Origin: Yuukianura sp. NJ FZ-2021
Lineage: Eukaryota
Direction: 5' to 3'
DNA length: 64,000 nucleotides
NCBI GenBank assembly: GCA_046563655.1
Contig: CM102287.1
Location: 7,068,001 to 7,132,000 of the forward strand
Below the pieces are notes generated by a model. That model did no database searches. It saw only the letters and a program-made list of their open reading frames with translations, and was not told the origin of the DNA. Within the stretch, counting starts at the first letter, position 1, and each line of letters begins with the position of its first letter. Positions 16,326-62,009 of this stretch are shown piece by piece. A program made the position numbers and the translations under genes.

Positions 16326-16901
16326 ATGGGGTTACTACTACGAAGTGACATGGCACTCGTCACTGTATTTTCAGCAGTTCTGGTTCTTCATGCATGTTAT
16401 GCAGCAGATCTGTACGAATCGTGCAGCGATAACGACTGCGTCATTGACAGAACGCTGAATAGCGGTGCATTCTACGAAGAACTGGAGTGGAGATGGATGC
16501 TGTTGGAATGTAAACCAAACCAAAGTTTAAGTGAAAGAGAACAGGGTTTTCTGAGGCTATCGGAATACTTCGAAAGAATCGCCGCCGGAATTCATTACCT
16601 GATCGACTTGCCATTTGGTGTTTATCCCTATCTCCACGTGGTTTGCGAAGAACTCTATCACGTATGCTGTATGGGACCGGTATACGACAACAAAACATTA
16701 ATTTGCGACGAGGGATTTCGAAAGTATTCGGCTGAATCGCGACTTAAAAAATTGCGACCATCGGCCTTCTTCACAATTACATCGACTAGGACTACTCCCA
16801 TGCCTTTTGAGTTCAACAATTCCGCCAGCGCTCTTGGACTGTGTAGGGATTGTCAAATCACGGCGCAAGTTGGTTTTCTATTCCTCGTTTGGGTGCATTG
16901 A
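16326..16901 (+). CDS. Small Cys-containing, probably GPI-anchored surface protein (191 aa), family member 2
   Basis: Intronless ORF with signal peptide, Thr-rich stalk, NNSAS omega-like site and hydrophobic C-terminus. Clear paralogue of 42582-43133, including similarity in the flanking UTRs. Confidence 0.85.
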   Translation: MGLLLRSDMALVTVFSAVLVLHACYAADLYESCSDNDCVIDRTLNSGAFYEELEWRWMLLECKPNQSLSEREQGFLRLSEYFERIAAGIHYLIDLPFGVYPYLHVVCEELYHVCCMGPVYDNKTLICDEGFRKYSAESRLKKLRPSAFFTITSTRTTPMPFEFNNSASALGLCRDCQITAQVGFLFLVWVH

Positions 16902-39475: not shown

Positions 39476-41234
39476 AACAAGTATCGTCAGATCAATTACA
39501 GAGAGTTCCCGCGCAAGATATTGTTGGCCTTGATCTCTTATATTATTAGAGGTCACTTGAGGTCAAACAGCATTCGGAATCTTAGTCCTCGCGTCGTCAA
39601 ACCCCCATCCCCAGAAATTAGTTCCGAATCGGTCCATCCGTTTCCCAATTGTAGAGAAAACTATGACCTTGAGCCTTGACCCTGTTAGAGGTCGCTCGAT
39701 GTCATCAGAAACCCATCAACGCAACCGCTTTTGAGTCTGTTCATCCGTTTACGTATTGTAAATGGAGCATAACTTTGACCTTGGACACCATTAGAGGTCA
39801 CTTGAGGTGAATCAAAAAACTGAATTTTAGTCATCTGGTCAGCAGTTACTAATTTAAAAAAACCGCTTAGAAATCAATGTAGTGCTTATAGAGTTATAAG
39901 CATTACAGAAGGACGGACAGACGGACGGACGGGCGGACAAGACGATTCCTATACGTACCTGACGATACTTAATAGCATAATTCCAAATTACAAAAAGTTA
40001 GAAGTTTACTATGAAAATCACTCTTTCTAAATAACATAATTCCAAATTCCAAAAAGTTAAAAGTTTACTATGAAAATCACTCTTTCTAAATAACATAATT
40101 TCAAATTCGTATTGTTAAAAGTTTACTATGAAAATCACTCTTTCTAAATAACATACTAATTTCAAATTCCAAAAAGTTAAAAGTTTAGTAGGAAAATCAC
40201 TCTTTCTAAATAACATAATTTCAAATTCCAAAAAGTTAAAAGTTTAGTAGGAAAATCACTCTTTCTAAATAACATAATTTCAAATTCCAAAAAGTTAAAA
40301 GTTTAGTAGGAAAATCACTCTTTCTAAATAACATAATTTCAAATTCCAAAAAGTTAAAAGTTTAGTAGGAAAATCACTCTTTCTAAATAACATAATTTCA
40401 AATTCCAAAAAGTTAAAAGTTTAGTAGGAAAACCGCTCTTTCTAAATAACATAATTTCAAATTCCAAAAAGTTAAAAGTTTAGTAGGAAAATCACTCTTT
40501 CTAAATAACATAATTTCAAATTCCAAAAAGTTAAAAGTTTAGTAGGAAAATCACTCTTTCTAAATATAATAATTCCAAATTCCAAAAAGTTAAAAGTTTA
40601 GTAGGAAAATCACTCTTTCTAAATAACATAATTTCAAATTCCAAAAAGTTAAAAGTTTAGTAGGAAAATCACTCTTTCTAAATAACATAATTTCAAATTC
40701 CAAAAAGTTAAAAGTTTAGTAGGAAAATCACTCTTTCTAAATAACATAATTTAAAATTCCAAAAAGTTAAAAGTTTACTATGAAAATCACTCTTTCTAAA
40801 TAACATACTTCCACATTCCAAAAAGTTAAAAGTTTACTATGAAAATCACTCTTTCTAAATAACATAATTCCACATTCCAAAAAGTTAAAAGTTTACTATG
40901 AAAATCACTCTTTCTAAATAACATAATTTCAAATTCCAAAAAGTTAAAAGTTTACTATGAAAATCACTCTTTTTGAATAACTCAATTGGAAATATTAGCC
41001 TGACCTGCTTGAGCTTAGACACCATTAGAGGTAACTCGAGGTGAATCCAAAAACTAATTTTTAATTATCTGGTCAGTAGTTAATTACTAATTTCAAAACG
41101 CCGCTTAGAAATCAATGCAGTGGTTATCGAGTTGTAAACATTAGACCGACGGATGGACTGACGGACAGACGGACCGATGACAGACGGACGGACGGACAAG
41201 ACGATGCCTATAAGTATCTGACGATACTTAATAA
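39476..41234 (-). mobile_element. Composite HINE/DINE-1-like (non-autonomous Helentron-type) element: one full copy, a tandem array, and a second partial copy
   Basis: Short inverted repeat aagtatcgtcag (39479) versus ctgacgatactt (about 39959 and 41218). (GACG/GACA)n microsatellite next to the terminus. Terminal hairpin taagtat...atactta. Internal ttagaggtca subrepeats. A ~200-bp direct duplication at 39784-39974 and 41018-41233. Confidence 0.65.
39976..40980 (+). repeat. Minisatellite, 17 copies of a 59-bp unit
   Basis: Unit cataatttcaaattccaaaaagttaaaagtttagtaggaaaatcactctttctaaataa, with starts at 40214, 40273, 40332 and so on. No spacers. Confidence 0.97.
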
Positions 41235-42581: not shown

Positions 42582-43133
42582 TCAATGCGTCCAAACGAGT
42601 AGTAGAAGACCAACTTGAGAAGTGATTGGACACGGTCCAAGAGTGCTGGCGGAATTGTTGAACCCAACCGGTGTGGTCGTTGACGTGGTCAAGAATGCAG
42701 ATGGTCGTAATTGTTTAAGTCGCAATCCAGCCGTGAACTTTCGATATCCCTTGTCGCAAGTATACGTTTTATTGTATCGAAATCCCAGACAGCACTCTTT
42801 GTAAAGGTCCACGAAGACTGCATGAAGATAGGGGTAAACATCCAACGGCAAGTAGATTAAATTGTAGTTCCCAGTAGCGATGTCGTCAAACAAAACCTTT
42901 TGCCGCTGAAAACCATCTTCTCTTTCAGCCTGAGTTTGGTTTGGCTTACATCCATACACGTTCCAGAAGGACTCCAGTTCTACGTAGAATGCATCGCTAG
43001 TCAGGCTTCTATCTACGACGCAGTCGTTATCGCTGCACGACTCGTACAGGTCTGCTGCATAACATGCATGAAGCACCAGAACTGCTGAAAAAACAGTGAC
43101 GAGTGCCAGGTCACTTCGTAATAGTAACCCCAT
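42582..43133 (-). CDS. Small Cys-containing, probably GPI-anchored surface protein (183 aa), family member 3
   Basis: Intronless paralogue of 16326-16901; 40 of the first 42 aa are identical. TTSTTTP stalk, NNSAS, hydrophobic tail. Confidence 0.85.
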   Translation of the reverse strand: MGLLLRSDLALVTVFSAVLVLHACYAADLYESCSDNDCVVDRSLTSDAFYVELESFWNVYGCKPNQTQAEREDGFQRQKVLFDDIATGNYNLIYLPLDVYPYLHAVFVDLYKECCLGFRYNKTYTCDKGYRKFTAGLRLKQLRPSAFLTTSTTTPVGFNNSASTLGPCPITSQVGLLLLVWTH

Positions 43134-45846
43134 TTCGTTTGGGTTTTTGTTTGGAGTATGGCCTGATTTTGTTGCACGTTTTCAAATAGGAAGTTCTCAA
43201 AAAATGCTGGCATTTTGGAATAAAATTTTTTAATCGTTTACGTTTGACGTAGGCGGATACTCACAATTAAACTTTTTTTTGTTTACTGTTGTTGTTTCAT
43301 AATAAAGAGGTTGTCTGCATCGATTGTTGTTTGTTGACAAACATTGAAGGAAATGGTAGGTAACTTTGTTTGACTAACGTCACTGGTGAACTGGTTTTCG
43401 AAAACAAAGACACTTCAGCAACACGCTCAAGGTAAAGGGAAGATAGAATTGTGAGATTTTGAACTACGTACTTAAAACAAAATTATTATTATTATTATTT
43501 TTTTTTATAAATGTCTGAAATACACAATTTCTGAATGTTTTGAATAACTTTTGCCAGAAGGGTTTTTTTTCTTTGATTTCTTGGAAAAATTTTTAAAAAT
43601 TTAGCGAAACATTAGTATAACGTAAACCTGCCAGTGGCAGGTTGAAAATTTTTGAATTTGAGAAATTGAAACTTATGGCTAAATAAATATATAGTTTTTA
43701 ACAAAGTGAAAAACTTCATCCATCGCAGCCTGATACTTGTTACGCGTGTTTTCGTAACCCCAAATGGATATGTTGTAAATATATTTTAACTGCAACATCG
43801 ACCATTTACTTCGTACACACGTCTAGCCTTCACGAAGTGATCGGACCATCTTACAAATCACTTTATTGTCAAAAATGCGTTCCAAAATTTTAACATTTTC
43901 GTTTAACCTTTGTTCATTTCCTTCAAAAACAAATTACATTTTTTCTTGAAGAAGACATTGTAGAACGTTTGATCGACTAATCACAAAACAGAAAATAATA
44001 ACAATAACAAAAGTGTTTACGAGAACGGAAATCTACGTCAAGGTTTGGTATTATATTTTCTAATTGCGTAAATCAAAAAACGTGCTAAATTGTAAGAAAA
44101 AGTGGACAGACAATGGGTAGGATAACAAACAAAAATGCTGTCTTCAAACAGGTTTCCGTAATGGAACGTCACCATTCTACTTCAAAATTTCTTGTTCGCC
44201 TGACAGGGGTAATATAAATTCAATTCGTTTTCAGACACTACAACTAGTGGATCACCGCAATAATACGTCCTCACTTGTGTAATTTTTATCAAGGAACAAG
44301 TTCCTTCTTCGAATTCTTACTTAAAAAACCAGTTACAACGTAAATAAGGTTTTCTAATATTTAGAAAACACTTTCTACTTTTTTGTCTGTGAGCTACGTT
44401 TGTGCTACGGATTTCGAAAGTTGATATCGTTAAAAGGTTTTATTTGAATCTGCGAAGTTTTGCAAAGTTAAGGTGTGAGCGAAATTTTGGTACAAATAAA
44501 TTAAAACACACTTTGATCTTGGCAAATAAAAACAACAGAACCAAAAAATAGGTGAGATACTTTTTTTTTAAATTAGTATAAGTAAACTACTGTATATTTT
44601 AGTGCGCGATATACGCCGATAAATAGGGTACTAGCGTGGAACCCACATATAGTACACCTTTATATTGGTAAAACGTTGAAAGTGGACAAATGGCCGAACA
44701 GGCTAGTGCTAGCGTGGACTGATTCCAGTTTTCCATTACATTTTTCGATTCCATTACAACCAGTTTCGGTTTATTAGTGGAAAAATTTGGTTGCCAAAAA
44801 ATGCTCTGACGTCCACTAAACAGGTTTATTGGACGTCAGCAAATCTCCTACGGATGATAAATGCATCCAGTCCTAGGAGATTTGCATATGGAATTTCTTG
44901 TTTTTTTTTTCCGTTGTTGTTGAAGGTTTTCTCAAATTGCGCATTATCGGACTAACGACTCCAAAAAAGTGTTTTTTAAAATGATTTTCAGTGTAATAAA
45001 TTTTGATACACTATAATTTGGTCTAACGAAGGTTTCACATAACTTGATTTCGCATATGCCTTTTGTACTCTTCTTATGTCACGCTTCAACATTACAACAG
45101 TGACCATTAGCATACAGCTTTTAAAGTAGTAGAGCTACCTAAATTTTAGTTCAAAAATTAATGAAGGTTCGACATTACGTATTATACTTAAAGACCTGGG
45201 ATGATCTTCGTCATCAGTATTTTTTCCCAATTTTTAGTTCTCATTCAGTCTATTAAATTTGACCATATAATGGTGGTTAACCTTTAAGGTGGTCCATCTG
45301 AAGCGAACTTTTAAAAGTAATTTTCCTTGTTCCTTCGCATGATGAAGATCAAATTATTTTCTGGAAAACAACAAAAAACTTGCGAAACGGCAACAAAATC
45401 CTAACTTCCTTGCTAAAAGTTGTTTTAGTCACTTTTCGACTTTGAAGCACAAAGAAAAAATACTCAGATTCTCCTACATATAATTTATAACAAGATTTGG
45501 CAACAATATTATCAACTCTTCTACGTTGTGCTTTGCAGTTCGTCTAAACAAAATTAAATTTCTGGTAAACTCGAAAACTCAAATGTCAACGTTTTTTACA
45601 TTCCGAACTCACAGAGCAAGAGACAACAACGACACCATATACTTTACATCGATCAATCTTATTAACGAAAACTGATTGACAGAATAGATGATCTGCGTCG
45701 GTTGTCAATTTCAATTACGAAAAGTTAACGCGGAAAAGTAGCCTTTCTAAGAGTTATAAGAAATATGCGTTATTAAAGAATTATAAGTTTAAAAAAAATA
45801 ATTCCTTATTTCAGGAACAAGAGCGCAAACTTAAAGAAGTGCCAAA

Positions 45847-48800
45847 ATGGATGTGGCAGTGATTGGGATGAGCTGCCGATTCCCGGGCGCTGACAACTTG
45901 GATGAATTTTGGTCCAATCTGGTTTCTGGAAAAGACTCAGTCACCAGCACACCAAAGGAAAGATGGTACATGGGACATGACCTTGTGGCTGGTACATTTT
46001 GTTGTTCTGTAACCTTGACTCAACAATTTGTTTTTGCACTTTGCTAACCGTGATTTGTGCTTAGGTTACCTAAAATGTCCGCTGGATGAGTTTGATGCTA
46101 ACTTTTTCAACATCAGTCCAAAAGAAGCTACTTACATTGACCCACAACATCGGTAAAACACTCGAACTAAAAGCATAAATTGTTGACTTCTGAAGCTGAA
46201 TTTTGAAAACCAAAAAAAAAAAAAAATTGGAAAACGTGTAAAGCGCAAGGTTAAAGCTTACTAAATTCTTATCTGCGCGAAATCTTTCTGCTGTGGGAAA
46301 GGAAAATTTGCGAGGTCAGTTCCTAAGTTTAAAAACTTTATCTATTAATTTTTTTTCTCTACTTTCAGGTTATTCCTGGAAGTGAGTTGGGAAAGTCTCG
46401 AGAATGCTGGAATTCCCGCAACGTCACTCAACGGAACCAAAACTGGCGTTTTCTTGGGCATCGGAAGTGACGAATACTTCCGAACGCAACTCGACGCCAC
46501 AGAAGACACAATTTACAAGATCGTTGGAAATTCCATCAGTGCTGCCACTGGCCGTCTCTCGTTCTTCTTAAATCTTCTTGGACCGTCAATTCCTATTGAA
46601 GCGACATGCGCATCCTCAGCAGTCGCCATACACTTGGCTTGTGGTTCCCTCCGAGGTGGGGAGTGTACAATGGCCTTGGCTGGCGGTGTTAACGTCCTCA
46701 TCAGTTCGGATTCAACTTATCCATCAGCACTGATTTCTCCGCGGTGCCGGTCATTTGACGCTTCAGCAAGCGGGTTCTCACCAGCCGAAGGTTGTGGAGT
46801 CGTCGTGCTCAAGCTTTTAAAAGAGGCCCTTAGAGACGGAAATGAAGTACTCGGGGTCATTCGGGGGTCATACGTGAACAACACTGGAAAAAGTACGAGT
46901 TACGGTACGCCGAGAACTTTAAGTGAAGAAATTACAATTCGTGAGGCCCTGAAAGCAGCTGATGTGAACCCGTTAGACGTTAGTTACGTCGAAGCACATG
47001 TAGGTGGAACTCAAATTGGCGATCCAGTTGAAGTCAAGGCTATTTCAAATGTCTTCGGGTCCAGGAATCGAACGTCTCCATTGGTCCTAGGAGCTTTCAA
47101 AACAAACATTGGGCACCCAATGGCTGCTGCAGGAGTCGCTGGCATGATCAAGATGCTACTCTGTTTGAAAAATCGAACCATCCCGCCAAATTTACATTTG
47201 AACCAACTCCATCCCGACATCAACTTGGAACCAATTCCAGCCATTTTGCCGTCAAGTCCGATTCCATGGAAAAGCTCTAAATCTTTAATTGGAGCTATCA
47301 ACTGCTTTGGAATTACCGGCACCAACGTTCATATTATTGTTGAAGAACCGCCAAAAGTTGAAGTTTCCAAGATTCAAAATTTGAATTTGTCCGCCACCAA
47401 ACATCCTCTCCATCTGTTGACCATTTCAGCCAATGATCAAGTCGCGTTAGAAAAACTTCGAAATAAATATCAAGAAGCGCTGGACTCCGATCCAAGTCCT
47501 GATTTGACCAATTTTACATTCAGTGCTAACACAACTCGAAGTCATTTGTCCCATCGCGTCGCTGTTACCGGCAGCTCATGCGCTGAACTCAGCCACAAGC
47601 TATCGACACTCAACTACGTAACTGGAACAGTACAGGGCATGCGCCAACCCATAGTGTTTCTGTTTACTGGTCATGGATGCCAGTACTTTGGAATGGCTCG
47701 AGGATTATACGAAACAAGCCCCATCTTTAAACAAGTTTTTGATTCTTGCAGCGTCGTTTACCGCAACAATCTTGGAGTCAGCTTAGAAAAGTTAATTTGG
47801 AATGGCGATCCAGCTTCGGCGCCAACTTTAAATCAAACGAAATACGGTCAACCAGCAATTTTTGTGATCGAGTACTGTTTGTACAGACTTTGGACAGAGT
47901 TGGGCATTCGGCCGGACTATGTTCTCGGACACAGTATTGGAGAATTCGCAGCATGCGTTGCTGCTGGAATGGTGTCCTTTGAAGATGGAATGAAACTGGT
48001 CTGTTGTCGCAGTATTTTGATTGATACGCTTCCCGAGGGACGAATGGTTGCCGTTGGCGCTGGAATTGACAAAGTGAATGGCCTCATCGAAAATTTTCAA
48101 ATGCTAAATTCCTCGGCGTGGTTAGATGTCGCTTGCTGCAATTCGATTGACCAAACTGTTGTATCAACTGATCCAGCTACAGCGGAAAAATTCAAAGAGT
48201 TTTTGAACCAACAAAGTCCGGCGGTAAAGTCAAAAGTGCTGCCGTCTCTGAACGCTTTTCATAGTCGCACTATGGAGCCAATTCTGGCTGAATTCGAAAG
48301 AATTGCAAACGAAATCAAAGTAAAAGAGCCAACATGCAAGTATGTCTCGGGGATGCTAAGCAGGGAGATTCAACCGTCGGAAATCAACGGTACTTACTGG
48401 AAAAATCACTGTCGAAATACCGTTTTGTTTTCAAAAAGTATCGACCTCTTGCTTCAACAAGGCTGCAAAGTTTTTCTAGAAGTTTCACCACAACCAATCC
48501 TCCTTAACTTTGTCATGTCAAACAACGTCAACGGTTCGGAGATCACTGCATGTCCATCACTACGAAGCTCCCAAGATGGTTGGACAACTGTATTGTCTAG
48601 CTTGGCCAAATTGTACGTTTCCACCAGCGCTGAAATTAAATTTGAAATTTTGAGCCCGGGAGCTCAAAGAATCCAGTTGCCAAACTATACGTTCAATCGC
48701 AAGAAATGCTGGGCTGCTCCGAATCCAAACCGTGGTCACCTTGCAGGTCCTGCGCAAGCGCAGTTCCATAGTCTGCTTGGATGGAAACTCAATTTGGCCA

Positions 48801-51800
48801 TGAGCTCTGATCTACGCTTTTACAACTACTTGTCCAGTGGCTCCACAGGATATGTTCAAGACCACACGATTCTGGATCACGTCATTGTTCCAGCTGCTTG
48901 TTACGTCGAGATGCTGCTGTCGCTTGCACGTAAAGAATACGGAGTCATGTATCCCGTAATTGAGAATCTGAACGTCTTCCGCGCATGCGTCCTTGACGAA
49001 AACATGAAACAAATTCAGACCAAAGTGGAATACGAAGGGCCGAACTTACTCGTAACATTTTTTAGCGAATCAGAAGAGGGCGAGTGGCTTCAGAATGTTC
49101 AAGCTACACTAAATCTAGAAGCTGCTCCGCAAGTACTACCATCAGCAGTCCCAATTGCCGAAATTGAGCAAATTAAAGCCGAGTGCTCAACGAAAATTGA
49201 TGTAGACGAGATGTACGAACGACTAGACATGTCCGGTATATCAATGGGTCCATCGTTCCGAAGCGCCCGGAAACTGTTCATGAGTCCCGACAAGTCAAAA
49301 ATGCTAGGGACTCTTGAGCGAGTGATTACGGCTGAAGGAGAATTCAGTTTTCATCCAATCGGAGTCGATGCTATTGTCCAGTGTTTCTGGGAGTACAAGA
49401 TGTGTCGTCTGGAAGAAATTCCATTTGCACTTCCAGTTGGAATCAACAAGTTCGTTTGGTACGGTGGAGACAATGCGACATTGCCAGATGAAATGTACCT
49501 TTACATTCCAGATGAAGATCACGGAGTAGTGTTTTCAGCGCAAGGTCAAATTTTTGCTGAAATTGAAGTACTCACCGTGCTTCATAGCACGTCAACTGCC
49601 TTCCTAAGGTCAATCACTCCAGGAGAAAAACTTCCTCAATTTATTTCCAAAGATTGGGTTCCACGAGAAACTGGAATTTTGGATGGTACGATACCGGCGG
49701 AAGATCTGACGACTTCTAATGAGCTGTTGACTCACACCGAAGTCAACCTTGCGCTGGAAAAAATTTCACAATATTATGAAGACAGAGTCCCACTGGAGAA
49801 ACTTTATGAGCAGCTAACCTCCCTGTACATTACGAAAACACTTTTACAATACGGTTGGAATCCAGTACCGGATATGCCGTTTGGACTGGAAAGTATCGTT
49901 AACGGTACAAAGTCAGTAGACGGTCGAACCATTGCAAAATTCCTAGACATCCTCAGTGAAGATGGACTTTTTGTTAAAACTGATGCTGAGCATTGGACGC
50001 TTGTTAAGAGACTGCTGGGAGTTGATGAAGTTACGGAAGAAATTCAGAAATTAGAAGCAGCAGTAGTTGAAATTAACCCCGGGGCGGGTATCAACTGCGA
50101 ACCGGAATTCGGTTACTTGAAACAACTTGGCGGAGTTCTACTTCCAGTTTTGCAAGGTCAAATGGATCCACTAGAGGCATTGGCTACAATCAAAAATTCT
50201 CCTGCCATGTTGAAACTCGAAAACACTGGAAGAGGTGAACTCTACACTCATCTGTTGGCGTCCGTTTTCGAAAATGTTTTCAAAAACTACACTGAAAAAT
50301 CTCCAAGCAAAAAGTTGCGAATTCTTCAAATCGGTACATTGGATCCAGCGGCATCAAAGGGCATTTTTGACGTGTTACAAAAACTCGCGGTTAAATTTGA
50401 ATTTACAATTGCAACTCAACTTAGTGCTCAAAAACCGCATCAATTCGCAGATCTAAATGTGATTTCGAAGACACTCGATATCCAGAAAGATCCAAAAGTT
50501 CAAGGCTTCCAACCATCGAGTTACGACATTGTAATTGCAGTTGAGGTTCTGCATGTAGCTGAAGACTTAAAATCAGCACTTGAAAACGTACGCCATCTCC
50601 TGGCGCCAAACGGCTACCTATTCCTTGGTGAACTGTTTCAAGAATACAGAGACTACGCAATTTCTTATGCCCTGCTCAGCAGTTACTGGAAACTTCAAGA
50701 TTCCAGAGGATTTGTCACAGCTGACTCCAATAGTTGGATCGATCTGCTCAACCAAACCGGTTTTGCCGGCACTGTTCCATTAACAATACAGGATTGCCCG
50801 AAAGGCCTCTTTGTTTCCCGAGCTGATGCGACAATGCGACTTTACAGGCCGTTTCAGACGAACTTGTCGGCATCCGATCCAGCATGGATAATATTTGGCA
50901 TGGAAGGAGATTTGCTCCAATCAGGACTCGGGAAACTGTTGAAGGAAGTTGGCCGCAATGTTTTCTATGTCGTGGAAGGTCTACGGTTTGACAAGGTCAA
51001 CGATTCTTTTACGGTCAACCCCAAGCGAGCTTCAGACTTTCAGCAATTGTCACATGTTTTGAAAAACTATGAAATTGAAGGAATATTATATTTCTGGGGA
51101 ATGTCAGCTCGACAAGCAGAGTTAGGCACTACTGCGCAGTTGCGGAAAATTGAAGAAGTTGTAACCACCGGATTTCTCAATGTACTCAAAATCCGAATTA
51201 ACAATGAGTGGACTTCGAAAATATTTTTGGTCACTTCTGGAGCGGAAGAGGTAAATCCAGCTCAAGGAACGCTTTGGGGAATGCTTGAAACTTACTTCAA
51301 TGAATACCAAGAAGCAACCGGAATGGGCATTGACGTTGACCAAGGGGCAACCCAGGATGAACTTTTGACCAACTTTGTATTCAGCGTCCTCTGGGATACG
51401 CCGAATGAACGTGGCGTTCGGTTCCAAAACGGTAAAATGGAAGTAGCTCGACTCCATGCCTATGATTCTACACTTCCATTGGATGAAATCCTGCTTCCGA
51501 AAGCGAAACAATTCAAAATGACTGATCCGACATCGTTGACATTTGGCAGCATTGAACCCGCAGCTGATTTGTCCAGCACTTTGGAAATTGCTGTCAGAGC
51601 CGTTGGTTTAAATTTTCGCGATTTGCTGGTCTGCAACGGCATGCTCGAAACGACACATCCGGAGTCAGTGGGTCTCGAGTTTGCCGGAATTGTAACAAAC
51701 AGTGGCACGTCAAACTTTGCAGTGGGTGATCGGGTTGCTGGTTTGACATTGTCCGGTGCATTTGCCAGTCACATAGTGGTAAATCCGCAGCTGATATTTC

Positions 51801-53863
51801 CAATTCCTTCTGGAATTTCATATGCTGGAGCAGCTACAATCCCAGTAGCCTTTGGAACTTGTTACTTGGCCCTCGTGGAAATTGCAAATGTACAGCCCAA
51901 GGAACGGGTTTTGATTCATACAGCTTCGGGTGGTGTCGGGTTAGCGGGAATTCAGCTAGCAAGATACTTGGGGACAGAAGTGTTTGTTACAGCTGGAACT
52001 GACCAGAAACGGAAGTATCTCCGCGAATGTCTTGGATTAACGCACGTCTACAACTCCAGGACACATGACTACAAAGACGAAATTTTGAGAGATACTGACG
52101 GAGTTGGAGTTGATGTGATCATTAACACCATAACTGGACGTGGTTTTAAGGAAGCCAGCCTCGACTGTTTGGCACGAAATGGACGATTCATTGAACTTTC
52201 CAAACTAAATATTTGGCAGCCACACGAAGTCAAAGAACTTAGACCGGACGTACACTACACAATTATGGATGCTTTCGATATGATTCTCAACGTTCACCCG
52301 ATTCTTAGTGGTTCGTTAAAACAGCTAACCAAACTTTTCGCGACCAATCAGCTGGACATTTTACCCCACACCAACTTTCCACTAGCTCAACTCAAATCAG
52401 CCTTCAAGTACTTTCACGCTCACAATCACATTGGGAAATCCGTAGTCGAAATTCCAGAATCCGCGGATAAATTATCTTCACTTACACTGTACAATCCGCA
52501 TTCAACGTACATGGTCACCGGGGGAGTTGGCGGTCTTGGATTTGAAATTGGGCGCTACTTATGGGCAAACGGAGCGAACGTTTTGCTTGTTGGCAGAAGT
52601 TTGCCAAGCGAAGAAAAGCAAATGAAGCTTGCGGAGTTTCATGACAGAATGCGATATGTTCAATGCGATGTTGGAGATTTTGAAAAATGTAAAGAGTTGA
52701 TTGACGGAATAGACCCGCCGCTTCGAGGAGTTTTTCATTTGGCGGGAATTTTTGCTAATGCGTTTCTCGTTGGTCAGAATTCAGAAAATTATGCAAAATC
52801 TTTTCAGTCCAAAGTCTACGGAACGTGGAACTTGCATCTCCTAACACGCCACCGCCATCTCGATCACTTTGTCGTCTTTTCATCGGTAGCTGCTGTTCTT
52901 GGTTCTACCGGACTTAGCAACTATTCGGCTGCAAACCGGTACATGGACTCTCTAATGCACTACCGTGTCAACCAGTGCGGTTTACCTGGTTTAGCAATCG
53001 ACTGGGGACCATGGGCTGAAGTAGGAGCAGCAGTGGGATATGTCGCTGGAATGTTCAAAAACTTTCATCACTTCCCGCCAGAACTGGGAATCCAGAGTAT
53101 GGAAAGAGCCATGCGCCTTGGACTTCATGAAATTGCTATAGCTGACATGGACATGAACATTGTTCAGAGTTCGCCACGTCTTGGTCCATACCTGTCCGAG
53201 CTGACGGTGAACACCGGACGAGGAAAACGGCGCGGCAAAGCTGACTCAGGTTTGAACAGACCGTGTGACATCAAGCTAGCTAATTTGGCGAAAGAAATTC
53301 TGGCCGAAACGGATCCACAGCTTCGGCTAGAAAAAATGGAACATTTTGTTGAAACAATGTTCAGAACACAGTCAGGTCTTGGTGAAACTGATGCCGTAGA
53401 CAAAGACCAAGCTCTAACACTGATGGGCATGGACTCACTCATAGGGATGGAGATGCGTCTCAGAATTTCAAAGTTGTTGAATGTCCAAATTTCAGCTAAC
53501 GGAGTCATGGAACACAATTCCATTCGATTGTTTGCAGTTTACTTGACGCAGCTCCTATCTCCCGCTGATTCGAACAGCCCCACGACGCCCATTGGGACGG
53601 AATTGGCAGACAAAATCAGTATTGCTCCAGAGTTAGCGGAAACAAGTGAATCCAAAATAGCAGCAACGACACCTAATTCCGTCCAAGACAAAATTGTTGA
53701 CGATTTTGCAAAGGAGAAAGTGGTGCCTGACAAGAAACTGAACGTGGAAGACAAGCAGCATTCCAAAAGGAGTCTACCGAAATTTGTTGCGAAGCAATTG
53801 CAGAAATTTCACAAACCCGACAAGAAACTTTCAAAAAATGAAAATGTTTGTAATGGAGCATAA
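45847..53863 (+). CDS. Highly reducing type I polyketide synthase, KS-AT-DH-(pseudo)MT-ER-KR-ACP, no thioesterase, ~2575 aa
   Basis: Exons 45847-45991, 46065-46152, 46369-53863 (in frame; ...DPQHR|LFLEVSWESLE). KS: VIGMSCRFPGA, EATCASS, EAH, KTNIGH. AT: GHSIG, NAFHS. DH: HTILDHVIVP, HPIGVD. MT: YDIVIAVEVLH. ER: LIHTASGGVG. KR: TGGVGGLG, YSAAN. ACP: GMDSL. Confidence 0.95.
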
Positions 53864-54251
53864 CTATTTTAGCGTTTAGTTTGTAGAATGACCAATTCCA
53901 AGTTCCGTCACTAAGAATTCTGCTACTGGATTTTTTTTTTGAAAATAATAGGTTTTGAATCCCAATTTGCACAGTTCTCAATATATTTCAAGAATTGAAG
54001 TAAAATAAAATTCAGTTGTTCGAAAGTTTTTTTTTTCAGTTTCAGCTTGGTTGCATATGATGAACAAAAACAAACAAAAATGAAAAAATTATACGAATAA
54101 GTAAGTAAGTATGATTTTTATTAGACTCAGCGGAAAAAGCAATCGAATTGAATCAAACTATACAGTGAGTGTACTTACGAATTTGACCCATTCAAAATTT
54201 AGAAGCCATTATAAAATGGTATCAGGGGGTGGAATTGTGGTTTACATTGCT

Positions 54252-55509
54252 TCAGAAAGTAAGGAGTAGAGTAATTGCATTGTCGATGATAATTTTCATG
54301 AAAGTCATGAACGTAATTTGTTTGATTTCAAAATACAATCCGACTCTGACACTCAATGGCCTGCAGGATGCAAGAAATTTTTGGTGATACCGAAAATGAA
54401 TTGTAGGTGGAACTGATTCCAGGGCTCTTCGAATTACATTGTCTGAAGTTTCATGAATTCGATACGACGGTGGAATCGTATCTACTGCTATCAACAGAGT
54501 TGCAAACGACGTCATACCGAATCCAATGATGCCTGCAATCTTGACGTAGCTGTGGAGTCGTACAACGACGTAGTTGCTGATAACGTTCACACCCAAAACC
54601 ATGCCGAGAGTGTACGGTATAATATTAGTTTGAAAGCAGTCGTTGAACCGGTTATTCAAAACTTGCAAAATTCGGTAGTTCTTGATCACTGTTCTGAAGT
54701 CCTGGCCACTTTAAGCAACGAAAATGTTGCGACAAAATTTCAATTTTAATTTTTTAATTTTTATTTTATTTTTTTAAAATATTTCTTACCATTGTGTCTT
54801 GAGGCAGACAGCGGTGCATTTGACGTAGGTGAGGAAGAAAACAGCATACAACAGCAGACTCGACGCTACTTGCGTAGACAAATATGCTTCGAAAAGCGCC
54901 AATGGCAGAAGTTTCCAACGCTTAACTACTCGAATTCCAGTCAACGAAAAAAAGTACTTTGGGTTGACATCTAGTGTTTTCCAAGCAATAAAGAATACCG
55001 AGCAGCAGTAAATGTACACCGCAATCACGAATTTTCGCGTCGAAGATTTGACTTTACTCGGAGTTCCTCTTTCCTCTAAAAAATCAGTTTAAAAGTTTCC
55101 GTCTTACATTCAAAATCACTGAATCAATTGCAATCGACAGCTTACGTTGCATGAAATACTGGTTTGTTTTGAGTAGTTCGTTGACAAAAGTTACGAAATC
55201 TGCGGTGTGCTGAAGTGTGTTGATCTGAAAGTTGCAATCCCCGATAAAAGTAACAACATTGAATAAATTCAAAAACAGTTTTCCGTAGGATAAGCCCAAA
55301 CAACACGCGGCTTGGACGAAGCGAACTGTCATGAAAATTGTATTCGCAAATATGTAGACTATGCCCAGTTTCCATTTGCAGTAGTCAAAATGCGACTGTT
55401 GTAACTTGGCTTCTTGCAAATGTGCATCCCATTTGAACGGAAAGCTGCCCAAAGTTCCACCTATTTTGAAAATTAACTTAATAGAATGCAGAATCGCCTT
55501 GGACAACAT
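54252..55509 (-). CDS. Gustatory-receptor-like 7TM chemoreceptor 1 (~368 aa)
   Basis: Exons 55509-55146, 55075-54790, 54708-54252 (phases 1 and 2, in frame). Multiple TM segments. Motifs FVTFVNELL and YRILQVLN; C-terminus LASCRPLSVRVG.YF.I...TF......IIDNAITLLL. Confidence 0.8.
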
Positions 55510-57079
55510 CTTTGACCTGGCACAAAATCCGTACTCAACTCGAAAAGCATTTTCTAATACAAAGTGATTCAAATATGCAACCGCAAATTAAATTTTGGAA
55601 ATCTAAAAACCTATTAAGCGAACGAAATAATTAAATCCCCTAAAGTGTTTCCTGCGGATATTATAGTTCCTCCTGCCGAAATTTAATTAAAATCTAAATT
55701 TATTTCAGCATGACTCTGATATCCAAAATAGGCGATGAAAGTTAACGGTAAAGTTTCATTAGTTTTTATTGTAATCTACTCAACATCGAATTATAAACGG
55801 GAAAGTTACATAAGAAGAAACGATGTATCTTGTCTTAATTAAATCACCAGATCTTAATTATGTTTCGTTCCAAATACTCTTCCTCGCATAAACCTAAAAA
55901 ATAAGTGTAGATAATGCGAATCTTATACGAAGTAATACTGTATGATTGCTAGCAAATAAAATTCTTTTTCTGCACAAGTTTCTGAAAACACAAACCATAT
56001 TCCATCCAATATACTTCGGCGAAAACAATATGCTACCAAAACATGTAATCTATACATAGTACATAAGTACTCAAATACTCACTTTCATCATTTCATTTCA
56101 TCATTGTTTATGAGAGTTCAGGTTCAACGTTTTGAGTTTGTTGTGTTTGGCTTCATATCATATAATGAATTATTCAATTCAAACTCATTTTTTTAATGTT
56201 GAGGACAATGATCTTTTAATTTTTCAAGGAAATTTCTTGCTTAGAAAATTGCTTTCCTTTCTTTCCCTCGGTCTGCTGCGGTAATATATGGTATTTTTCT
56301 TGTTTACTTGGTTTAAGCTTTATCAGTAGCTATTTCTTTGCATTTAAAAAAAAATTGGCGTAATGGTGAATTAGCTATTTCATGGCACATATAATTTATT
56401 GGCAACCGTAATTCGGGAAGCATAAAACTCAGCAAATATAAAGATACAACAACGTCTCGGACAAACACACAAAAAAATTGTTTTTCGTGTTCGCAAATTA
56501 CACATTTCTTACTCGACGTGTAATTTTCTTCGTTAAAATTTTACTTTCTCCAGCAAAGTCATATTAAAGCGGAGCTACTAGAATTACATACATACACAAA
56601 ACCAAACGTATGTAATTAACCTTGAAGGTTGTGCACAACTTTACGGAATGCCAGTTGGAATTGCACACTTTTGTAGCAAAAAATTATACATTTTTAAAGG
56701 TATTGATTTTTTTATTACCTTTTCAAAAAGCAAGATTTTTCGTCAACTACAATCGATTCAAACCTTTATTGTTTGTGTCATCAGAATGACAATGAGAAGG
56801 TTTTTTTTTCAATTCAGACAAAAATGTGAATTGGTAAAAAATTTTGTTTCGAAAACCAGCTTTAAGAAAAACAATTTTTCCAAAAATAGGTTTATTTCAA
56901 ATCAGTAGTTAACTTCAGCGTTTTAAAATGGACTCAACTTGGCATCTTCACTTCACTTCTACGACAAAAATTTGAGAACTCTGCTTCCGAAATTTGATCA
57001 ATCGATTTTTTTTCGTTGTTAAAAAATTTAGTGTCAAAGTGGCTTTTTAAATTTCAAACTTTCTGTGGACTGGAAAATA

Positions 57080-58390
57080 ATGGTAGAGTCGCGGTCAGCT
57101 CTACCAACTTCAGTATCCAATGATTTGAGAATTGTTCTCAACATCTTTTCAAAATTTGCTTTAGTGAACGTACTTTATATTCCAAGGGAAGATGGTTACT
57201 TTGAAATCCTGCAACAATCAGATTACCGATTGCCGCTGTTTTACTTCATTGGACTCAGCAACTTAAGCCTAGTCATTTTTCAAATTTTCAGATTTTTTCA
57301 AATTTCAATTTACCACACGGAATTCGAAAAGATTGTGCTTGACTACATGTGGATGGGTGGTTACTCAGCAGCTTTTTTCTACTATTTTCATTTTCTTAAA
57401 TCAAGAGACTCTATTTCCGCATTTCTCAATCGGCTCATTCGATTCCAAACGAGATATCAAAGTAAGTGCATCTAAAATTTACAATTTTAAAACAAAAATT
57501 CCTCGATTACTTTTGTACAGGATGGCCCGTAAAGATTGTCCCTCAGACGAAACGCTCTTTCTGGAACGTGACCTTGTTATTGAGGGTGACCGTGATTGGT
57601 ACTTACGGAATGATGACCGTTGTAGCAATCATAAACGTGTTGTACAGAAAGTCCTCGAGGTCTGTGTTCTCAGTGTTTCTGAGCAACGACCAACTGGACA
57701 GTGGTGTACATGTACTGTTACTGGTATTTCTCCTTGAAATGGCAATTGGTGTCGTACCTTCTTGTGCAGTTGTCTTCCATGGAGTCATCCTAACATCATA
57801 CTTGTACTTCAACTCAAAGTGGATTCAAGGCATCAGGTCAGTGACCTCTTGACCTCAGCTAATACACTGAGATCATTAGTATAGAAAATAACCGTTATAT
57901 TATATATTATAGGAAAGACGCCACTGGGGGACGACTGAGACGGATTCTCATGGAGGAACGCTCGTTTCGAATTTACCGCTGCCTACAACTGTTGAACTTT
58001 GAGTTCAACTGTTTATTCGGTCCAACAATAATACCGATCAGTTTGACGTTTATGTTGACCATGACAGTGTTGGGCAACGTTCTGATCATTCGGTTCCATC
58101 ATAGTCTCAACGTCCTACACTTCCTCCTTTTCATTTTCTTCTCTACCGTGTCCATTCTGGGCGTCATTTTTGCATTCCCATTGGCTGCTCATGTCACCAG
58201 GAGTTCCAGTGCCTACGTTAGGTTTTGGCGGGAAGAAGGGACCGGGCGTCTTTATTCAAAACAGTTCCTGGCCTCATGTCGTCCACTACAAGTGAATATG
58301 GGCCTCTCTTCTGTTTTCACACGCACCACGACATTTTCTGCCATTGGATTCATCGCTTACGCCACCCTGCGGCTCGCAATTGCGTTATAA
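57080..58390 (+). CDS. Gustatory-receptor-like 7TM chemoreceptor 2 (~391 aa)
   Basis: Exons 57080-57461, 57521-57836, 57913-58390, with the same intron phases as receptor 1. Motifs ISAFLNRLI, YRCLQLLN, LASCRPLQVNMG...TF. Confidence 0.8.
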
Positions 58391-61251: not shown

Positions 61252-62009
61252 CGTAGCAGGTCATAACCGACAATCCAAAAATCGACAATCCAATAATCGA
61301 CAATCAATAATCGACAATTCCAAAAATCGACAATCCTTTAAGCGACAATCCTAAAATCGACAATTTAAAAAATCGACAATTTCAAAAATCGACAATTCCA
61401 AAATCTACAATTCTAAAATCGACAATGTCAAAAATCGACAATCCTAAAACCGACAATTCCAATATTCATAGAAACCAGAAAGCAGTCTAACGGAAAAATT
61501 TTACCATCTTCCGCGGTATGTTGAAGGTTGTATTTTATAAGTTTGGCTATAGTTACACAACTGGCAGTACTGATGAAGTTTGGCTAGCTTAGCATGCGGT
61601 ACCGCGCCGAAGGCGCGGCGTTAGGTTTGGTAAAGCAGACAATAGTAATTACGTCTGTAGGGTTTATTGTATAAGTCTGGGTTAGGAAAATTTCAAAATT
61701 TCAAAAAATCATAACCATGTTGTCTGGCACTGCACAAATATGATTGCATATTCGTGTTCAGCACCGCGATAGTAAAAATTTTCCGTTAGACTGCTTTCTG
61801 GTTTCTATCAATATTGGAATTGTCGGTTTTAGGATTGTCGATTTTTGACATTGTCGATTTTAGAATTGTCGATTTTTGAAATTGTCGATTTTTGAAATTG
61901 TCGATTTTAGGATTGTCGCTTAAAGGATTGTCGATTTTTGGAATTGTCGATTATTGATTGTCGATTATTGGATTGTCGATTTTTGGATTGTCGGTTATGA
62001 CCTGGAACC
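61252..62009. mobile_element. Mutator-like foldback MITE (758 bp) with 9-bp target-site duplication
   Basis: About 250-bp near-perfect TIRs (61252-61504 and 61772-62009) built from aaaatcgacaat subrepeats. Perfect TSD AACCGAGGG at 61243-61251 and 62010-62018. Central hairpin ccgcgccgaaggcgcgg. No ORF. Confidence 0.92.

What the first reader, a model, noticed from the sequence alone, without database searches (positions are those of the whole stretch)
45847..53863. Animal-encoded, microbial-looking highly reducing PKS: two 5' introns, one 7.5-kb exon, no thioesterase
Seen: an intact KS-AT-DH-MT-ER-KR-ACP frame ending in a ~105-aa charged tail rather than a TE. Its only coding introns lie in the first ~80 codons. 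Motifs such as [56 protein letters not shown] and [10 protein letters not shown] resemble bacterial or fungal PKS modules more than animal FAS, which ends in a TE. Inference: a secondary-metabolite synthase, either horizontally acquired and domesticated or a member of the animal PKS clade. It would make an unknown reduced polyketide (defence compound, pheromone or cuticular lipid) and need a trans-acting release enzyme and a PPTase, neither of which is in the window. Spliceosomal introns and arthropod neighbours argue against contamination.
Basis: partly seen in the sequence, partly recalled or inferred. Interest (0 to 1): 0.8.

Follow-up and report, generated by a model that had tools for sequence, protein, structure and literature searches.

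The report
Bacterial-type polyketide synthase in a springtail-like genome
An apparently intact 2,575-residue polyketide synthase gene of bacterial type sits among ordinary animal genes in what looks like a springtail genome, a new and nearly orphan example of a kind of gene capture already reported in springtails, with its methyltransferase part apparently disabled.

Summary
Window 45847-53863 (+) encodes a 2,575-aa single-module type I PKS in three exons. The introns are 73 and 216 nt, and the last exon is 7,495 nt. Domain order is KS-AT-DH-MT-ER-KR-ACP plus a roughly 100-aa Lys-rich tail. There is no thioesterase in the gene or in the 10 kb downstream.

It is not an animal FAS or AFPK. The KS-AT scores 578 bits against cyanobacterial CurL and 212-231 against animal FAS. 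A KS-AT tree nests it among bacterial cis-AT PKSs, and grouping it with fungal HR-PKSs is rejected (AU p=0.003). A KS-only test was inconclusive, and no animal FAS or animal-PKS sequences could be added. End to end it is collinear with unimodular bacterial PKSs such as PuwB (about 31% identity).

Neighbours are animal genes whose best matches are Collembola. Codon usage matches the neighbours.

Only one close relative turned up (57% identity), plus one distant one.

New detail: both SAM-binding motifs of the MT are lost here but kept in both relatives, so the MT is probably dead.

Verdict: an old, domesticated bacterial PKS module, and a new member of a known kind. Its product, its release step and whether it acts iteratively remain inferred. 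Expression is untested.

The parts
45847..45991 (+). Exon 1: ATG and the first 48 codons plus 1 nt (KS N-terminus, MDVAVIGMSCRFPGA...)
   Evidence: In-frame TAA 12 nt upstream. Aligns to bacterial KS from residue 3.
45992..46064 (+). Intron 1, 73 nt, GT..AG, GC 36%
46065..46152 (+). Exon 2, 88 nt (KS N-terminal region ...DEFDANFFNISPKEATYIDPQHR)
46153..46368 (+). Intron 2, 216 nt, GT..AG, GC 31%; interrupts the conserved DPQxR|LxLE KS motif
46369..53863 (+). Exon 3, 7,495 nt including the TAA stop; carries the rest of KS through ACP and the tail
46367..47200 (+). KS domain (the part in exon 3). Active-site Cys (TCASS) and both His (EAHVGGT, NIGH) are present.
   Evidence: Pfam PF00109/PF02801; residues aligned with bacterial KS
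47222..47602 (+). KS-AT linker (KAsynt_C_assoc, CurL-like PKS C-terminal)
47654..48628 (+). AT domain: GHSIGE active site; NAFHS aligned to HAFHS of CurL (malonyl-type motif; the rule is recalled)
   Evidence: CurL 211 bits
48767..49618 (+). DH domain: HTILDHVIVP (HxxxDxxxxP, with D where the usual motif has G) and DAIVQ
   Evidence: Pfam PF21089/PF14765; motifs read; kept in P0123
49796..50788 (+). C-methyltransferase-like domain, probably inactive. Motif I reads QIGTLDPA at 50324-50356 instead of EIGAGxG. The FTD motif is lost through a 3-residue deletion. The His (VLH) and Glu (LGE) aligned to CurJ are kept.
   Evidence: (CurJ 5thy, 99 bits)
50789..51568 (+). Structural (pseudo-KR) and linker region between MT and ER
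   Evidence: No strong Pfam hit. 58% identical to P0123. Assigned by position only.
51581..52447 (+). ER domain with the NADPH motif HTASGGVG
   Evidence: Pfam ADH_N, ADH_zinc_N; CurK ER 208 bits, MAS 283 bits
52502..53020 (+). KR domain: TGGVGGLG and YSAAN
   Evidence: Pfam KR, E 2.5e-47
53354..53536 (+). ACP with the GMDS phosphopantetheine site
   Evidence: Pfam PP-binding; aligned with bacterial ACPs
53564..53860 (+). C-terminal tail of about 100 aa, S/T/P/A-rich then Lys-rich, with no domain hit. It lies where bacterial unimodular PKSs carry their post-ACP (docking) tails, but shows no significant similarity to them.
54004..54009 (+). AATAAA, a candidate polyadenylation signal about 140 nt after the stop. 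A convergent chemoreceptor-like gene on the - strand has its nearest ORF at 54252-54710.
   Evidence: Read

Best explanation
This is a real, host-integrated gene for a single-module, highly reducing type I polyketide synthase of bacterial cis-AT ancestry. It most likely entered an ancestor of a springtail lineage as one whole bacterial ORF. That ORF would have been a unimodular KS-AT-DH-cMT-ER-KR-ACP extender of the kind represented by cyanobacterial PuwB and the Cur modules, which carry no thioesterase because release happens elsewhere in the assembly line. It has since acquired two spliceosomal introns near the 5' end and the host's codon usage, and has diverged strongly.

Shown: the gene model; the domains; intact catalytic motifs of KS, AT, DH, ER, KR and ACP; loss of both SAM-binding motifs of the MT; absence of a TE; the animal neighbourhood; bacterial affinity.

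Inferred: the host's own PPTase activates the ACP. The AT loads malonyl units. The KS condenses, and KR, DH and ER reduce fully. Because the MT cannot bind SAM, the chain is unbranched, so the ACP-bound product is a saturated, fatty-acid-like acyl chain. I put this at about 55% iterative (FAS/MAS-like) and about 25% one or a few rounds on a fatty-acyl primer (PuwB-like). Release needs a separate hydrolase or acyltransferase encoded elsewhere.
For: Gene and domains.

Not a FAS or AFPK:
- KS-AT versus the PDB: CurL 578 bits, DEBS about 410-420, MAS 370, Dictyostelium PKS16 345, LovB 270, animal FAS 212-231.
- ER-KR-ACP: MAS 283, human FAS 219, sacoglossan EcPKS1 156 and EcPKS2 125.

Bacterial affinity:
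- The KS is up to 45% identical to bacterial KSs and 30-39% to fungal ones.
- In the KS-AT tree (37 rows, 893 columns, site-heterogeneous model), window + P0123 + P0136 sit inside a 100* set of 24 rows, the other 21 of them bacterial. Holding them with the 9 fungal rows costs 63.9 lnL (AU p=0.0029).
- Full-length collinear matches: PuwB 30.5-31.2% over 97-98% of the protein, Rhizobacter 31.1%.
- PuwB is described as a unimodular AT-DH-MT-ER-KR PKS that elongates and methylates a FAAL-loaded fatty acyl (PMC4219810, passages).
- Of 30 next-best proteins looked up, 11 clusters carry organism names: 9 cyanobacterial, 1 Planctomycetota, 1 Anaerolineae, 0 eukaryotic.

Integration and age:
- Neighbours are two Cys-loop channels, a trypsin, an innexin and a 7tm_7-like gene.
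- The channel's best named hits are Folsomia candida 54%, Orchesella dallaii 52%, O. cincta 49% and Allacma fusca 43%.
- PKS GC is 45.1% and GC3 42.4%, inside the neighbours' range. RSCU correlates at r=0.83 with pooled neighbours, against 0.80 for one half of the neighbours versus the other.

MT decay:
- CurJ has EIGAGTGG and FTDI where this protein has QIGTLDPA and FTIA.
- P0123 (IEIGAGSG, FTDIG) and P0136 (LEVGAGTG, YTDIS) keep both motifs.
- Identity to P0123 is 35-46% in the MT region, against 59-70% in AT, DH, ER and KR.

Constraint: all other catalytic motifs are invariant between the window protein and P0123 at 58% overall identity.

Precedent:
- Acquired PKS genes in Folsomia candida (PMC5490193, passages; PMC10764717, sections 7 and 10).
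- A single native PPTase co-regulated with an acquired NRPS in F. candida (PMC10531068, passage).
Against: - No animal FAS, arthropod AFPK, echinoderm/vertebrate-type animal PKS, protist PKS or Folsomia PKS sequence could be placed in any tree. 'Not in an animal PKS clade' therefore rests only on PDB scores and on nesting among bacteria.
- With KS alone (74 rows), the AU test did not reject grouping with the 20 ascomycete HR-PKSs (p=0.378), although SH-aLRT placed the window in a 96* set of 33 rows, all others bacterial.
- In the full-length tree (LG+G4, quick, 25 rows), the clade sits between the fungi and the 14 bacterial or unnamed unimodular rows, not inside them.
- No bacterial sequence is close (at most 45% in the KS, 26% in DH-MT), so no donor can be named.
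- P0136's ORF lacks the first ~63 KS residues, which may mean another 5' intron. That hints at an older eukaryotic family.
- The tree rows were chosen by me from named hits, taking the best-matching module of each protein.
- There is no expression evidence.
- AT specificity and MT inactivity are motif inferences. The His and Glu of the MT are retained.
Confidence: 0.7

Rival explanations
1. The gene belongs to an old eukaryotic or animal PKS family inherited vertically (or acquired very deeply), rather than being a springtail-lineage acquisition from bacteria. Its bacterial look would then reflect the general closeness of such PKSs to bacterial cis-AT modules.
For: - A third, very distant member, P0136 (30% identity over the full length), groups with it at 99-100*. 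Its ORF starts at the equivalent of residue 64, as if a 5' intron removed the KS N-terminus.
- No near bacterial donor exists.
- The stem branch is long.
- Lin et al. state that PKSs occur in every animal phylum examined except sponges and ctenophores (PMC10764717, section 7).
Against: - The clade is nested within the sampled bacterial KS-AT diversity.
- No named arthropod or other animal protein appeared among the 106 hits of the DH-MT search or among the 11 organism-named clusters looked up.
- Only P0123 exceeds 30% identity in the DH-MT region among 1.84 billion representatives.
- The source organisms of P0123 and P0136 are unknown, so 'eukaryotic family' is itself unproven.
Confidence: 0.15
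2. The enzyme is not iterative. Like PuwB, it adds one (or a few) fully reduced C2 units to a pre-made fatty acyl primer and hands the product to another enzyme, working as a specialised elongation module in lipid metabolism.
For: - Its closest characterised full-length analogue, PuwB, does exactly this and likewise has no TE or loading domain.
- The protein starts directly at the KS.
- A post-ACP tail lies where bacterial modules carry docking regions.
Against: - No FAAL, free-standing ACP, downstream module or other partner is in the window.
- The tail has no significant similarity to the bacterial tails.
- The single-module megasynthases of animals that have been studied (FAS, AFPKs, the bird PKS) act iteratively. 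This is established knowledge, recalled.
Confidence: 0.25
3. The gene is a silent relic: a captured bacterial ORF that is no longer expressed or functional.
For: - The MT motifs have decayed.
- There is no TE or partner nearby.
Against: - 2,575 codons are open across three exons with canonical splice sites.
- Every catalytic motif except the MT's is intact and shared with a relative that is only 58% identical.
- Codon usage is fully host-like, which implies long residence. An unconstrained 7.7-kb frame would not stay open that long (inference).
Confidence: 0.06
4. It is a divergent animal fatty acid synthase or an arthropod FAS-like PKS (AFPK).
For: The KS-AT-DH-(dead MT)-ER-KR-ACP order mirrors animal FAS with its pseudo-methyltransferase. 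Arthropods hold many AFPKs (PMC10764717).
Against: - Animal FAS scores 212-231 bits against 578 for CurL in KS-AT.
- EcPKS1 and EcPKS2 score 156 and 125 against 283 for MAS in ER-KR.
- There is no TE, whereas arthropod AFPKs are described as having FAS-like architecture including a TE.
Confidence: 0.02
5. It is bacterial contamination or an assembly chimera.
For: The best matches are all bacterial.
Against: - Two GT..AG introns split conserved KS motifs.
- Animal genes lie within 0.4 kb downstream, and further out on both sides.
- GC and codon usage match the neighbours.
- No bacterial protein exceeds 45% identity.
Confidence: 0.02

Closest known systems
PuwB, the unimodular PKS of the puwainaphycin pathway (Cylindrospermum), and similar one-module cyanobacterial and proteobacterial PKS proteins
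   Same: - Same domain order and size.
- Collinear over 97-98% of the length at 30.5-31.2% identity.
- Starts at the KS, has no TE, and has a short tail after the ACP.
   Different: - This gene is in an animal genome, with introns and host codon usage.
- Its MT has lost the SAM motifs, whereas PuwB is described as yielding an alpha-methylated product.
- No FAAL, ACP or downstream module is nearby.
Curacin synthase modules CurL (KS-AT) and CurJ (C-MT), solved structures 4mz0 and 5thy
   Same: They are the best solved-structure matches for KS-AT (578 bits), AT alone (211 bits) and the MT region (99 bits).
   Different: The Cur proteins are parts of a multi-protein bacterial assembly line. The CurJ MT has EIGAGTGG and FTDI, which this protein lacks.
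Horizontally acquired type I PKS genes of the springtail Folsomia candida (e.g. OXA62418.1)
   Same: An arthropod (springtail) genome carrying a PKS-type rather than a FAS-type KS, interpreted as horizontally acquired (PMC10764717 section 10; PMC5490193 passages).
   Different: - No Folsomia protein appeared among the relatives found here.
- Only one unnamed protein is close (P0123, 57%).
Mycocerosic acid synthase (MAS) of mycobacteria
   Same: - A single-module KS-AT-DH-ER-KR-ACP iterative synthase.
- Best solved match for ER-KR-ACP (283 bits), and 370 bits for KS-AT.
- That MAS has no TE and off-loads through a separate acyltransferase is recalled, not tested here.
   Different: MAS has no MT domain and uses methylmalonyl units (recalled). 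Here the AT motif is malonyl-like.
Animal fatty acid synthase and AFPKs
   Same: - The same overall order, with an inactive methyltransferase-like domain between DH and ER.
- The predicted product is likewise a saturated chain.
   Different: - Much lower similarity.
- No TE.
- Nests among bacterial PKSs, though no FAS or AFPK row was in the trees.

Membership tests
Type I cis-AT polyketide synthase, fully reducing module | KS with the Cys-His-His catalytic residues | tested here: met
   TCASS, EAHVGGT and NIGH align with the ACSSS, ETHGTGT and NIGH of a bacterial KS.
Type I cis-AT polyketide synthase, fully reducing module | An integrated AT with GHSxG, plus DH, ER, KR and an ACP Ser, in the canonical order | tested here: met
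   Pfam order and scores. GHSIGE, HxxxDxxxxP/DxxxQ, HTASGGVG, GGVGGLG/YSAAN and GMDS read.
Type I cis-AT polyketide synthase, fully reducing module | KS-AT groups with bacterial modular PKSs rather than with fungal HR-PKSs | tested here: met
   KS-AT tree and AU test, p=0.0029. KS alone was inconclusive, p=0.378.
Bacterial unimodular cMT-containing extender PKS (PuwB/CurJ type) | A functional SAM-binding site in the C-MT | tested here: not met
   QIGTLDPA instead of EIGAGxG, and the FTD motif deleted. Both motifs are kept in P0123 and P0136.
Bacterial unimodular cMT-containing extender PKS (PuwB/CurJ type) | Works within a cluster, with a loading enzyme and a downstream module | tested here: not met
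   No such genes among 136 ORFs of the window. The rest of the genome is not available.
Animal fatty acid synthase (FASN) | A C-terminal thioesterase domain | tested here: not met
   No PF00975 or hydrolase hit in the protein or downstream.
Animal fatty acid synthase (FASN) | KS-MAT most similar to animal FAS | tested here: not met
   FAS 212-231 bits against CurL 578.
Animal FAS-like PKS (AFPK) | KS and reductive domains cluster with animal FAS and mollusc EcPKS1/2 | tested here: not met
   EcPKS1 156 and EcPKS2 125 bits against MAS 283 in ER-KR. Neither is among the 60 best KS-AT matches shown. No tree with AFPKs was possible.
Animal PKS clade (echinoderm, vertebrate, nematode type) | KS groups with those animal PKSs | not testable with these tools
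Horizontally acquired springtail PKS genes | The host is a springtail | tested here: inconclusive
   The neighbouring channel's four best named hits are all Collembola, but at only 43-54% identity against 40-44% for other arthropods. Only one neighbour was tested.
Horizontally acquired springtail PKS genes | Non-animal ancestry together with integration in the animal genome | tested here: met
   for ancestry (with the caveats given). for integration.

The most novel reading that the evidence does not exclude
A bacterial extender module captured by a springtail lineage is being remodelled into a FAS-like iterative synthase. In this species the C-methyltransferase has just lost SAM binding while its two relatives keep it, giving KS-AT-DH-(pseudo-MT)-ER-KR-ACP. 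That would be an independent, datable replay of the PKS-to-FAS transition that produced the animal FAS pseudo-methyltransferase. It would also supply an unusual straight-chain lipid (cuticular or defensive) through a release enzyme not yet known.
Probability: 0.2. Interest if true: 0.75.

Novelty: new member of a known kind. Interest (0 to 1): 0.5.

Why it matters
True PKSs are rare in arthropods, and none from a springtail has been characterised in the papers I could search. This gene is a clean, intact example with a clear gene model. It has an almost orphan lineage: one close and one distant relative among the 1.84 billion representative proteins searched. It also offers a built-in natural comparison, MT dead here and MT motifs intact in the relatives, that could be used to study how a modular bacterial PKS is domesticated in an animal and how a methyltransferase turns into a structural pseudo-domain. 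It may also point to the source of some of the unusual lipids or defence compounds of Collembola.

Tried and rejected
- No whole genome is held for this window. Paralogues, the canonical FAS, the PPTase and release enzymes of the same animal could therefore not be sought.
- RNA evidence: no RNA holder was listed for 45600-54400. Expression and splicing remain untested.
- The metagenome scan with the window/P0123 alignment matched 589 stretches on the peptide patterns, but none encodes a relative.
- The protein atlas gave PKS-like clusters without recorded taxa. For the neighbouring channel it gave clusters from Mollusca, Arthropoda and Chordata. It was not useful for origin.
- The first KS-AT homologue search lists proteins by summed score, so multi-module bacterial PKSs fill all 120 rows. 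It says nothing about single-module relatives.
- KS-only phylogeny: the topology is bacterial, but the AU test could not reject a position beside the fungal HR-PKSs (p=0.378).
- The full-length LG+G4 quick tree places the clade between the fungi and the unimodular bacterial or unnamed rows. The tool's own notes warn that this setting often joins long branches, so I give it little weight.
- The post-ACP tail has no significant similarity to the tails of nine bacterial unimodular PKSs and no Pfam hit. A docking role is only a guess.
- Considered and rejected: FAS or AFPK, contamination, and pseudogene (see the rivals).
- In the +2 frame, the nucleotides of MT motif I read IGSSGI. This may be a trace of a short compensated frameshift, but it does not restore GxGxG and is too weak to build on.
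- The supplementary alignments of PMC10764717, which hold animal FAS, AFPK and PKS KS sequences, were not opened. They could bear on the untested animal-PKS-clade question.

Full report
**What is there**

Window 46349-53863 (+) is one open frame of 2,504 codons. The next longest stop-to-stop frame in the 64-kb window has 629. Upstream, an ATG at 45847 opens a short exon that encodes a typical KS N-terminus.

A search over all GT/AG pairs for combinations that keep the frame open gave one model with an uninterrupted KS:
- exon 1: 45847-45991
- intron 1: 45992-46064 (73 nt)
- exon 2: 46065-46152
- intron 2: 46153-46368 (216 nt)
- exon 3: 46369-53863 (7,495 nt, ending in TAA)

The product has 2,575 aa. 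It aligns with bacterial KS domains from residue 3 onward, and the second junction restores the conserved DPQHR|LFLEV stretch. An in-frame TAA lies 12 nt before the ATG. An AATAAA lies about 140 nt after the stop, and a convergent gene on the other strand has its nearest ORF at 54252-54710.

**Domains**

Pfam gives KS, KS-AT linker (KAsynt_C_assoc, CurL-like), AT, DH (PKS_DH_N, PS-DH), a weak methyltransferase match, ER (ADH_N, ADH_zinc_N), KR and PP-binding, in that order, and no thioesterase.

Read from the translation and checked against aligned bacterial or solved proteins:
- KS has its Cys and both His.
- AT has GHSIGE, and NAFHS where CurL has HAFHS. This is a malonyl-type motif; the rule itself is recalled, not tested.
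- DH has HxxxDxxxxP and DxxxQ.
- ER has HTASGGVG.
- KR has GGVGGLG and YSAAN.
- ACP has GMDS.

About 100 residues follow the ACP. They are S/T/P/A-rich and then Lys-rich (K is 16 of the last 112), and no family matches them.

No TE, hydrolase, reductase, PPTase or acyltransferase domain appears in 35 downstream + strand ORFs. None appears in 136 ORFs of at least 75 aa over both strands of the window outside the PKS.

**The methyltransferase is probably dead**

The best solved match of the MT region is the CurJ C-methyltransferase (99 bits).
- Where CurJ reads EIGAGTGG and FTDI (the two SAM-binding motifs; assignment recalled), this protein reads QIGTLDPA and FTIA. The second change comes from a three-residue deletion.
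- Its closest relative, P0123, keeps IEIGAGSG and FTDIG. The distant relative P0136 keeps LEVGAGTG and YTDIS.
- Identity to P0123 drops to 35% in the MT lid and 46% in the MT core, against 59-70% in AT, DH, ER and KR.
- The His and Glu aligned with CurJ's VLH and YE are retained, so this is an inference from motifs, not a demonstration.
- In the +2 frame the motif I nucleotides read IGSSGI. This is at most a faint trace of a small compensated frameshift.

**It is not a FAS or an AFPK**

| Region | Scores against solved structures (bits) | Call |
|---|---|---|
| KS-AT | CurL 578; DEBS modules about 410-420; mycocerosic acid synthase 370; Dictyostelium PKS16 345; PsoA 297; LovB 270; mouse, pig and human FAS 212-231 | 14 (117 sequences matched, 60 shown) |
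| ER-KR-ACP | MAS 283; two modular PKS fragments 269-276; human FAS 219; Drosophila FAS 174; mollusc AFPKs EcPKS1 156 and EcPKS2 125 | 38 |

Arthropod AFPKs are described as keeping the FAS architecture, including a TE (PMC10764717, section 10). This gene has none.

**Where it sits among PKSs**

Close relatives are almost absent.
- A search of the DH-MT region against 1.84 billion representative proteins found one close relative, P0123 (946 bits, 51% identity). The next best scored 214 bits at 26%. P0123 is 57% identical over 1,972 aligned residues.
- Of 30 next-best proteins looked up, 11 clusters carry organism names: 9 cyanobacterial (PuwB of Cylindrospermum, Nostoc, Dolichospermum/Anabaena McyD, Microcoleus, Okeania twice, a Cyanobacteria MAG, Nostoc NIES-4103, Trichodesmium), one Planctomycetota and one Anaerolineae.
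- Over its whole length the protein is collinear with one-module bacterial proteins: PuwB at 30.5-31.2% over 97-98%, an unnamed NCBI protein (whose cluster holds a Trichodesmium fragment) at 31.5%, and Rhizobacter at 31.1%.
- PuwB is described as a unimodular AT-DH-MT-ER-KR PKS that elongates and alpha-methylates a fatty acyl supplied by a FAAL and an ACP, then passes it on (PMC4219810, passages).

A whole bacterial ORF became one giant exon. The missing TE is what an internal or unimodular bacterial module looks like.

**Trees, including the results that cut the other way**

I chose the rows myself: proteins with organism names, each represented by the module that best matches the query.

1. 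KS alone. There were 74 rows: the window, 51 bacterial and 22 fungal. Under LG+G4 the window falls in a 96* set of 33 rows, all others bacterial. It is separated from 20 ascomycete HR-PKSs by a 100* branch, but sits on a long branch (1.25 against a median of 0.39) with no resolved sister. The AU test did not reject holding it with the 20 ascomycete rows (p=0.378).
2. Whole proteins. There were 25 rows under LG+G4 quick. Window + P0123 (100*) join the unnamed P0136 (100*). This trio lies between the 8 fungal rows and the 14 bacterial or unnamed unimodular rows, not inside them. The tool warns that this setting often joins long branches.
3. KS-AT. There were 37 rows and 893 columns under a site-heterogeneous model. 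Two rows without a full KS-AT were dropped. The trio (99*) is nested inside a 100* set of 24 rows, the other 21 of them bacterial. Holding it with the 9 fungal rows costs 63.9 log-likelihood units (AU p=0.0029).

I take the third analysis as the best. The limits are plain. No animal FAS, AFPK, echinoderm/vertebrate/nematode PKS, protist PKS or Folsomia PKS could be included, because none was retrievable with the calls available. No donor phylum is resolved.

**Host and integration**

- The window holds two tandem Cys-loop chloride-channel genes, a trypsin-domain gene, three innexin exons, weak 7tm_7 chemoreceptor-like ORFs and a Steroid_dh-family exon.
- The best named matches of one channel are Folsomia candida 54%, Orchesella dallaii 52%, O. 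cincta 49% and Allacma fusca 43%, followed by insects and crustaceans at 40-44%. The host is therefore most likely a springtail or a close relative. Only one neighbour was tested and the margin is modest.
- The PKS has GC 45.1% and GC3 42.4%, inside the range of 15 neighbouring coding stretches (GC 38-48.5%, GC3 33-64%).
- Its synonymous codon usage correlates with theirs at r=0.83. One half of the neighbours against the other half gives 0.80.
- Introns and flanks have 30-36% GC.

Together with the introns, this excludes contamination and argues for long residence in the genome.

**How it most likely works**

Shown: the domain set, the motifs, no TE, and no partner in the window.

Inferred:
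- Activation is by the animal's own PPTase. In F. candida a single native PPTase is reported to be co-regulated with an acquired NRPS (PMC10531068, passage).
- Malonyl is loaded, each round is fully reduced, and no C-methylation occurs, giving a saturated unbranched acyl-ACP.
- With no other module at hand, I favour iterative use (about 55%) over a PuwB-like single extension of a fatty acyl primer (about 25%).
- Release must be done by a separate enzyme. The tail lies where bacterial relatives have post-ACP tails, but shows no significant similarity to nine of them.
- The product and its role (cuticular lipid, defence compound or signal) are unknown. Springtail chemistry includes unusual cuticular hydrocarbons and defence compounds (PMC10825826, passages), but nothing links them to this gene.

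**Comparison with what is known, and novelty**

- Lin et al. report very few true PKSs in arthropods. They single out a horizontally acquired Folsomia candida PKS, OXA62418.1 (PMC10764717, sections 7 and 10).
- The F. candida genome paper reports 30 type I PKS clusters by antiSMASH, with most of the clusters' genes classed as horizontally acquired (PMC5490193, passages).
- An oribatid mite has bacterial-like KS transcripts (PMC7542773, passages).
- Four full-text searches found no paper that characterises a springtail PKS.

The kind is therefore known. This lineage is new and nearly orphan, and the lineage-specific decay of its methyltransferase is a new detail.

**Verdict**

It is a new member of a known kind, with an interest score of 0.5.

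The boldest reading not excluded is that this is a captured bacterial module caught in the act of becoming FAS-like. I give that about 0.2.

Noticed in passing
P0136 (unnamed Logan protein, 2,476 aa): A third, distant member of the window PKS's clade: 30% identity over the full length, and 99-100* sister in two trees. Its MT motifs are intact and it has no TE. Its ORF begins at the equivalent of residue 64 of the window protein, as if a 5' intron cut off the KS N-terminus. Its organism is unknown.
   Followed up: partly
window 50324-50356: The nucleotides of the degenerate MT motif I read IGSSGI in the +2 frame. This may be a trace of a small compensated frameshift that destroyed the GxGxG loop. 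It needs read-level confirmation.
   Followed up: partly
window 4768-5892 (-) and 7851-8924 (-): Two tandem glutamate/glycine-gated chloride-channel-like genes, each almost entirely in one exon (375 and 358 aa ORFs). Their best named matches are Collembola at only 43-54% identity, so they may be a divergent lineage-specific pair.
   Followed up: partly
window 16302-16898 (+) and 42585-43181 (-): Two clearly paralogous 199-aa ORFs lie 26 kb apart in opposite orientation. Their signal-peptide-like N-termini are nearly identical and they have hydrophobic C-termini. No Pfam family matches.
   Followed up: no
window 1105-4632 (+): Four successive Cys-rich ORFs of 154-220 aa with no Pfam match. By eye they look like repeats of one unknown extracellular domain.
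   Followed up: no
window 10624-13242 (+): A 629-aa Pro/His/Gly-rich ORF is followed, after 24 nt, by a trypsin-domain ORF. This is probably one serine protease gene with a long low-complexity N-terminal region.
   Followed up: no
window about 14000-38000: Sustained positive GC skew (0.14-0.25 in 2-kb windows) over about 24 kb, with many short - strand ORFs and, by eye, GPCR-like exons at 20367-21892 (-). Unexplained.
   Followed up: no
window 39971-40981: A minisatellite of a 59-bp unit, 17 copies, 95% matches, in the most AT-rich part of the window (GC 29%).
   Followed up: no
window 61268-61462 and 61814-61993: Two arrays of a 15-bp repeat (about 12 copies each) in inverted orientation, about 350 bp apart.
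   Followed up: no
window 63069-63320 (-): An exon of the Steroid_dh family (3-oxo-5-alpha-steroid 4-dehydrogenase family, Pfam PF02544; E 7e-10), about 9 kb downstream of the PKS. It is a lipid-related reductase, but nothing links it to the PKS.
   Followed up: no
window 54255-55587 (-) and 57032-58387 (+): Chemoreceptor-like 7TM ORFs on both strands directly downstream of the PKS. Only one reaches a weak 7tm_7 match (E 1.8e-5, below Pfam's gathering score).
   Followed up: no
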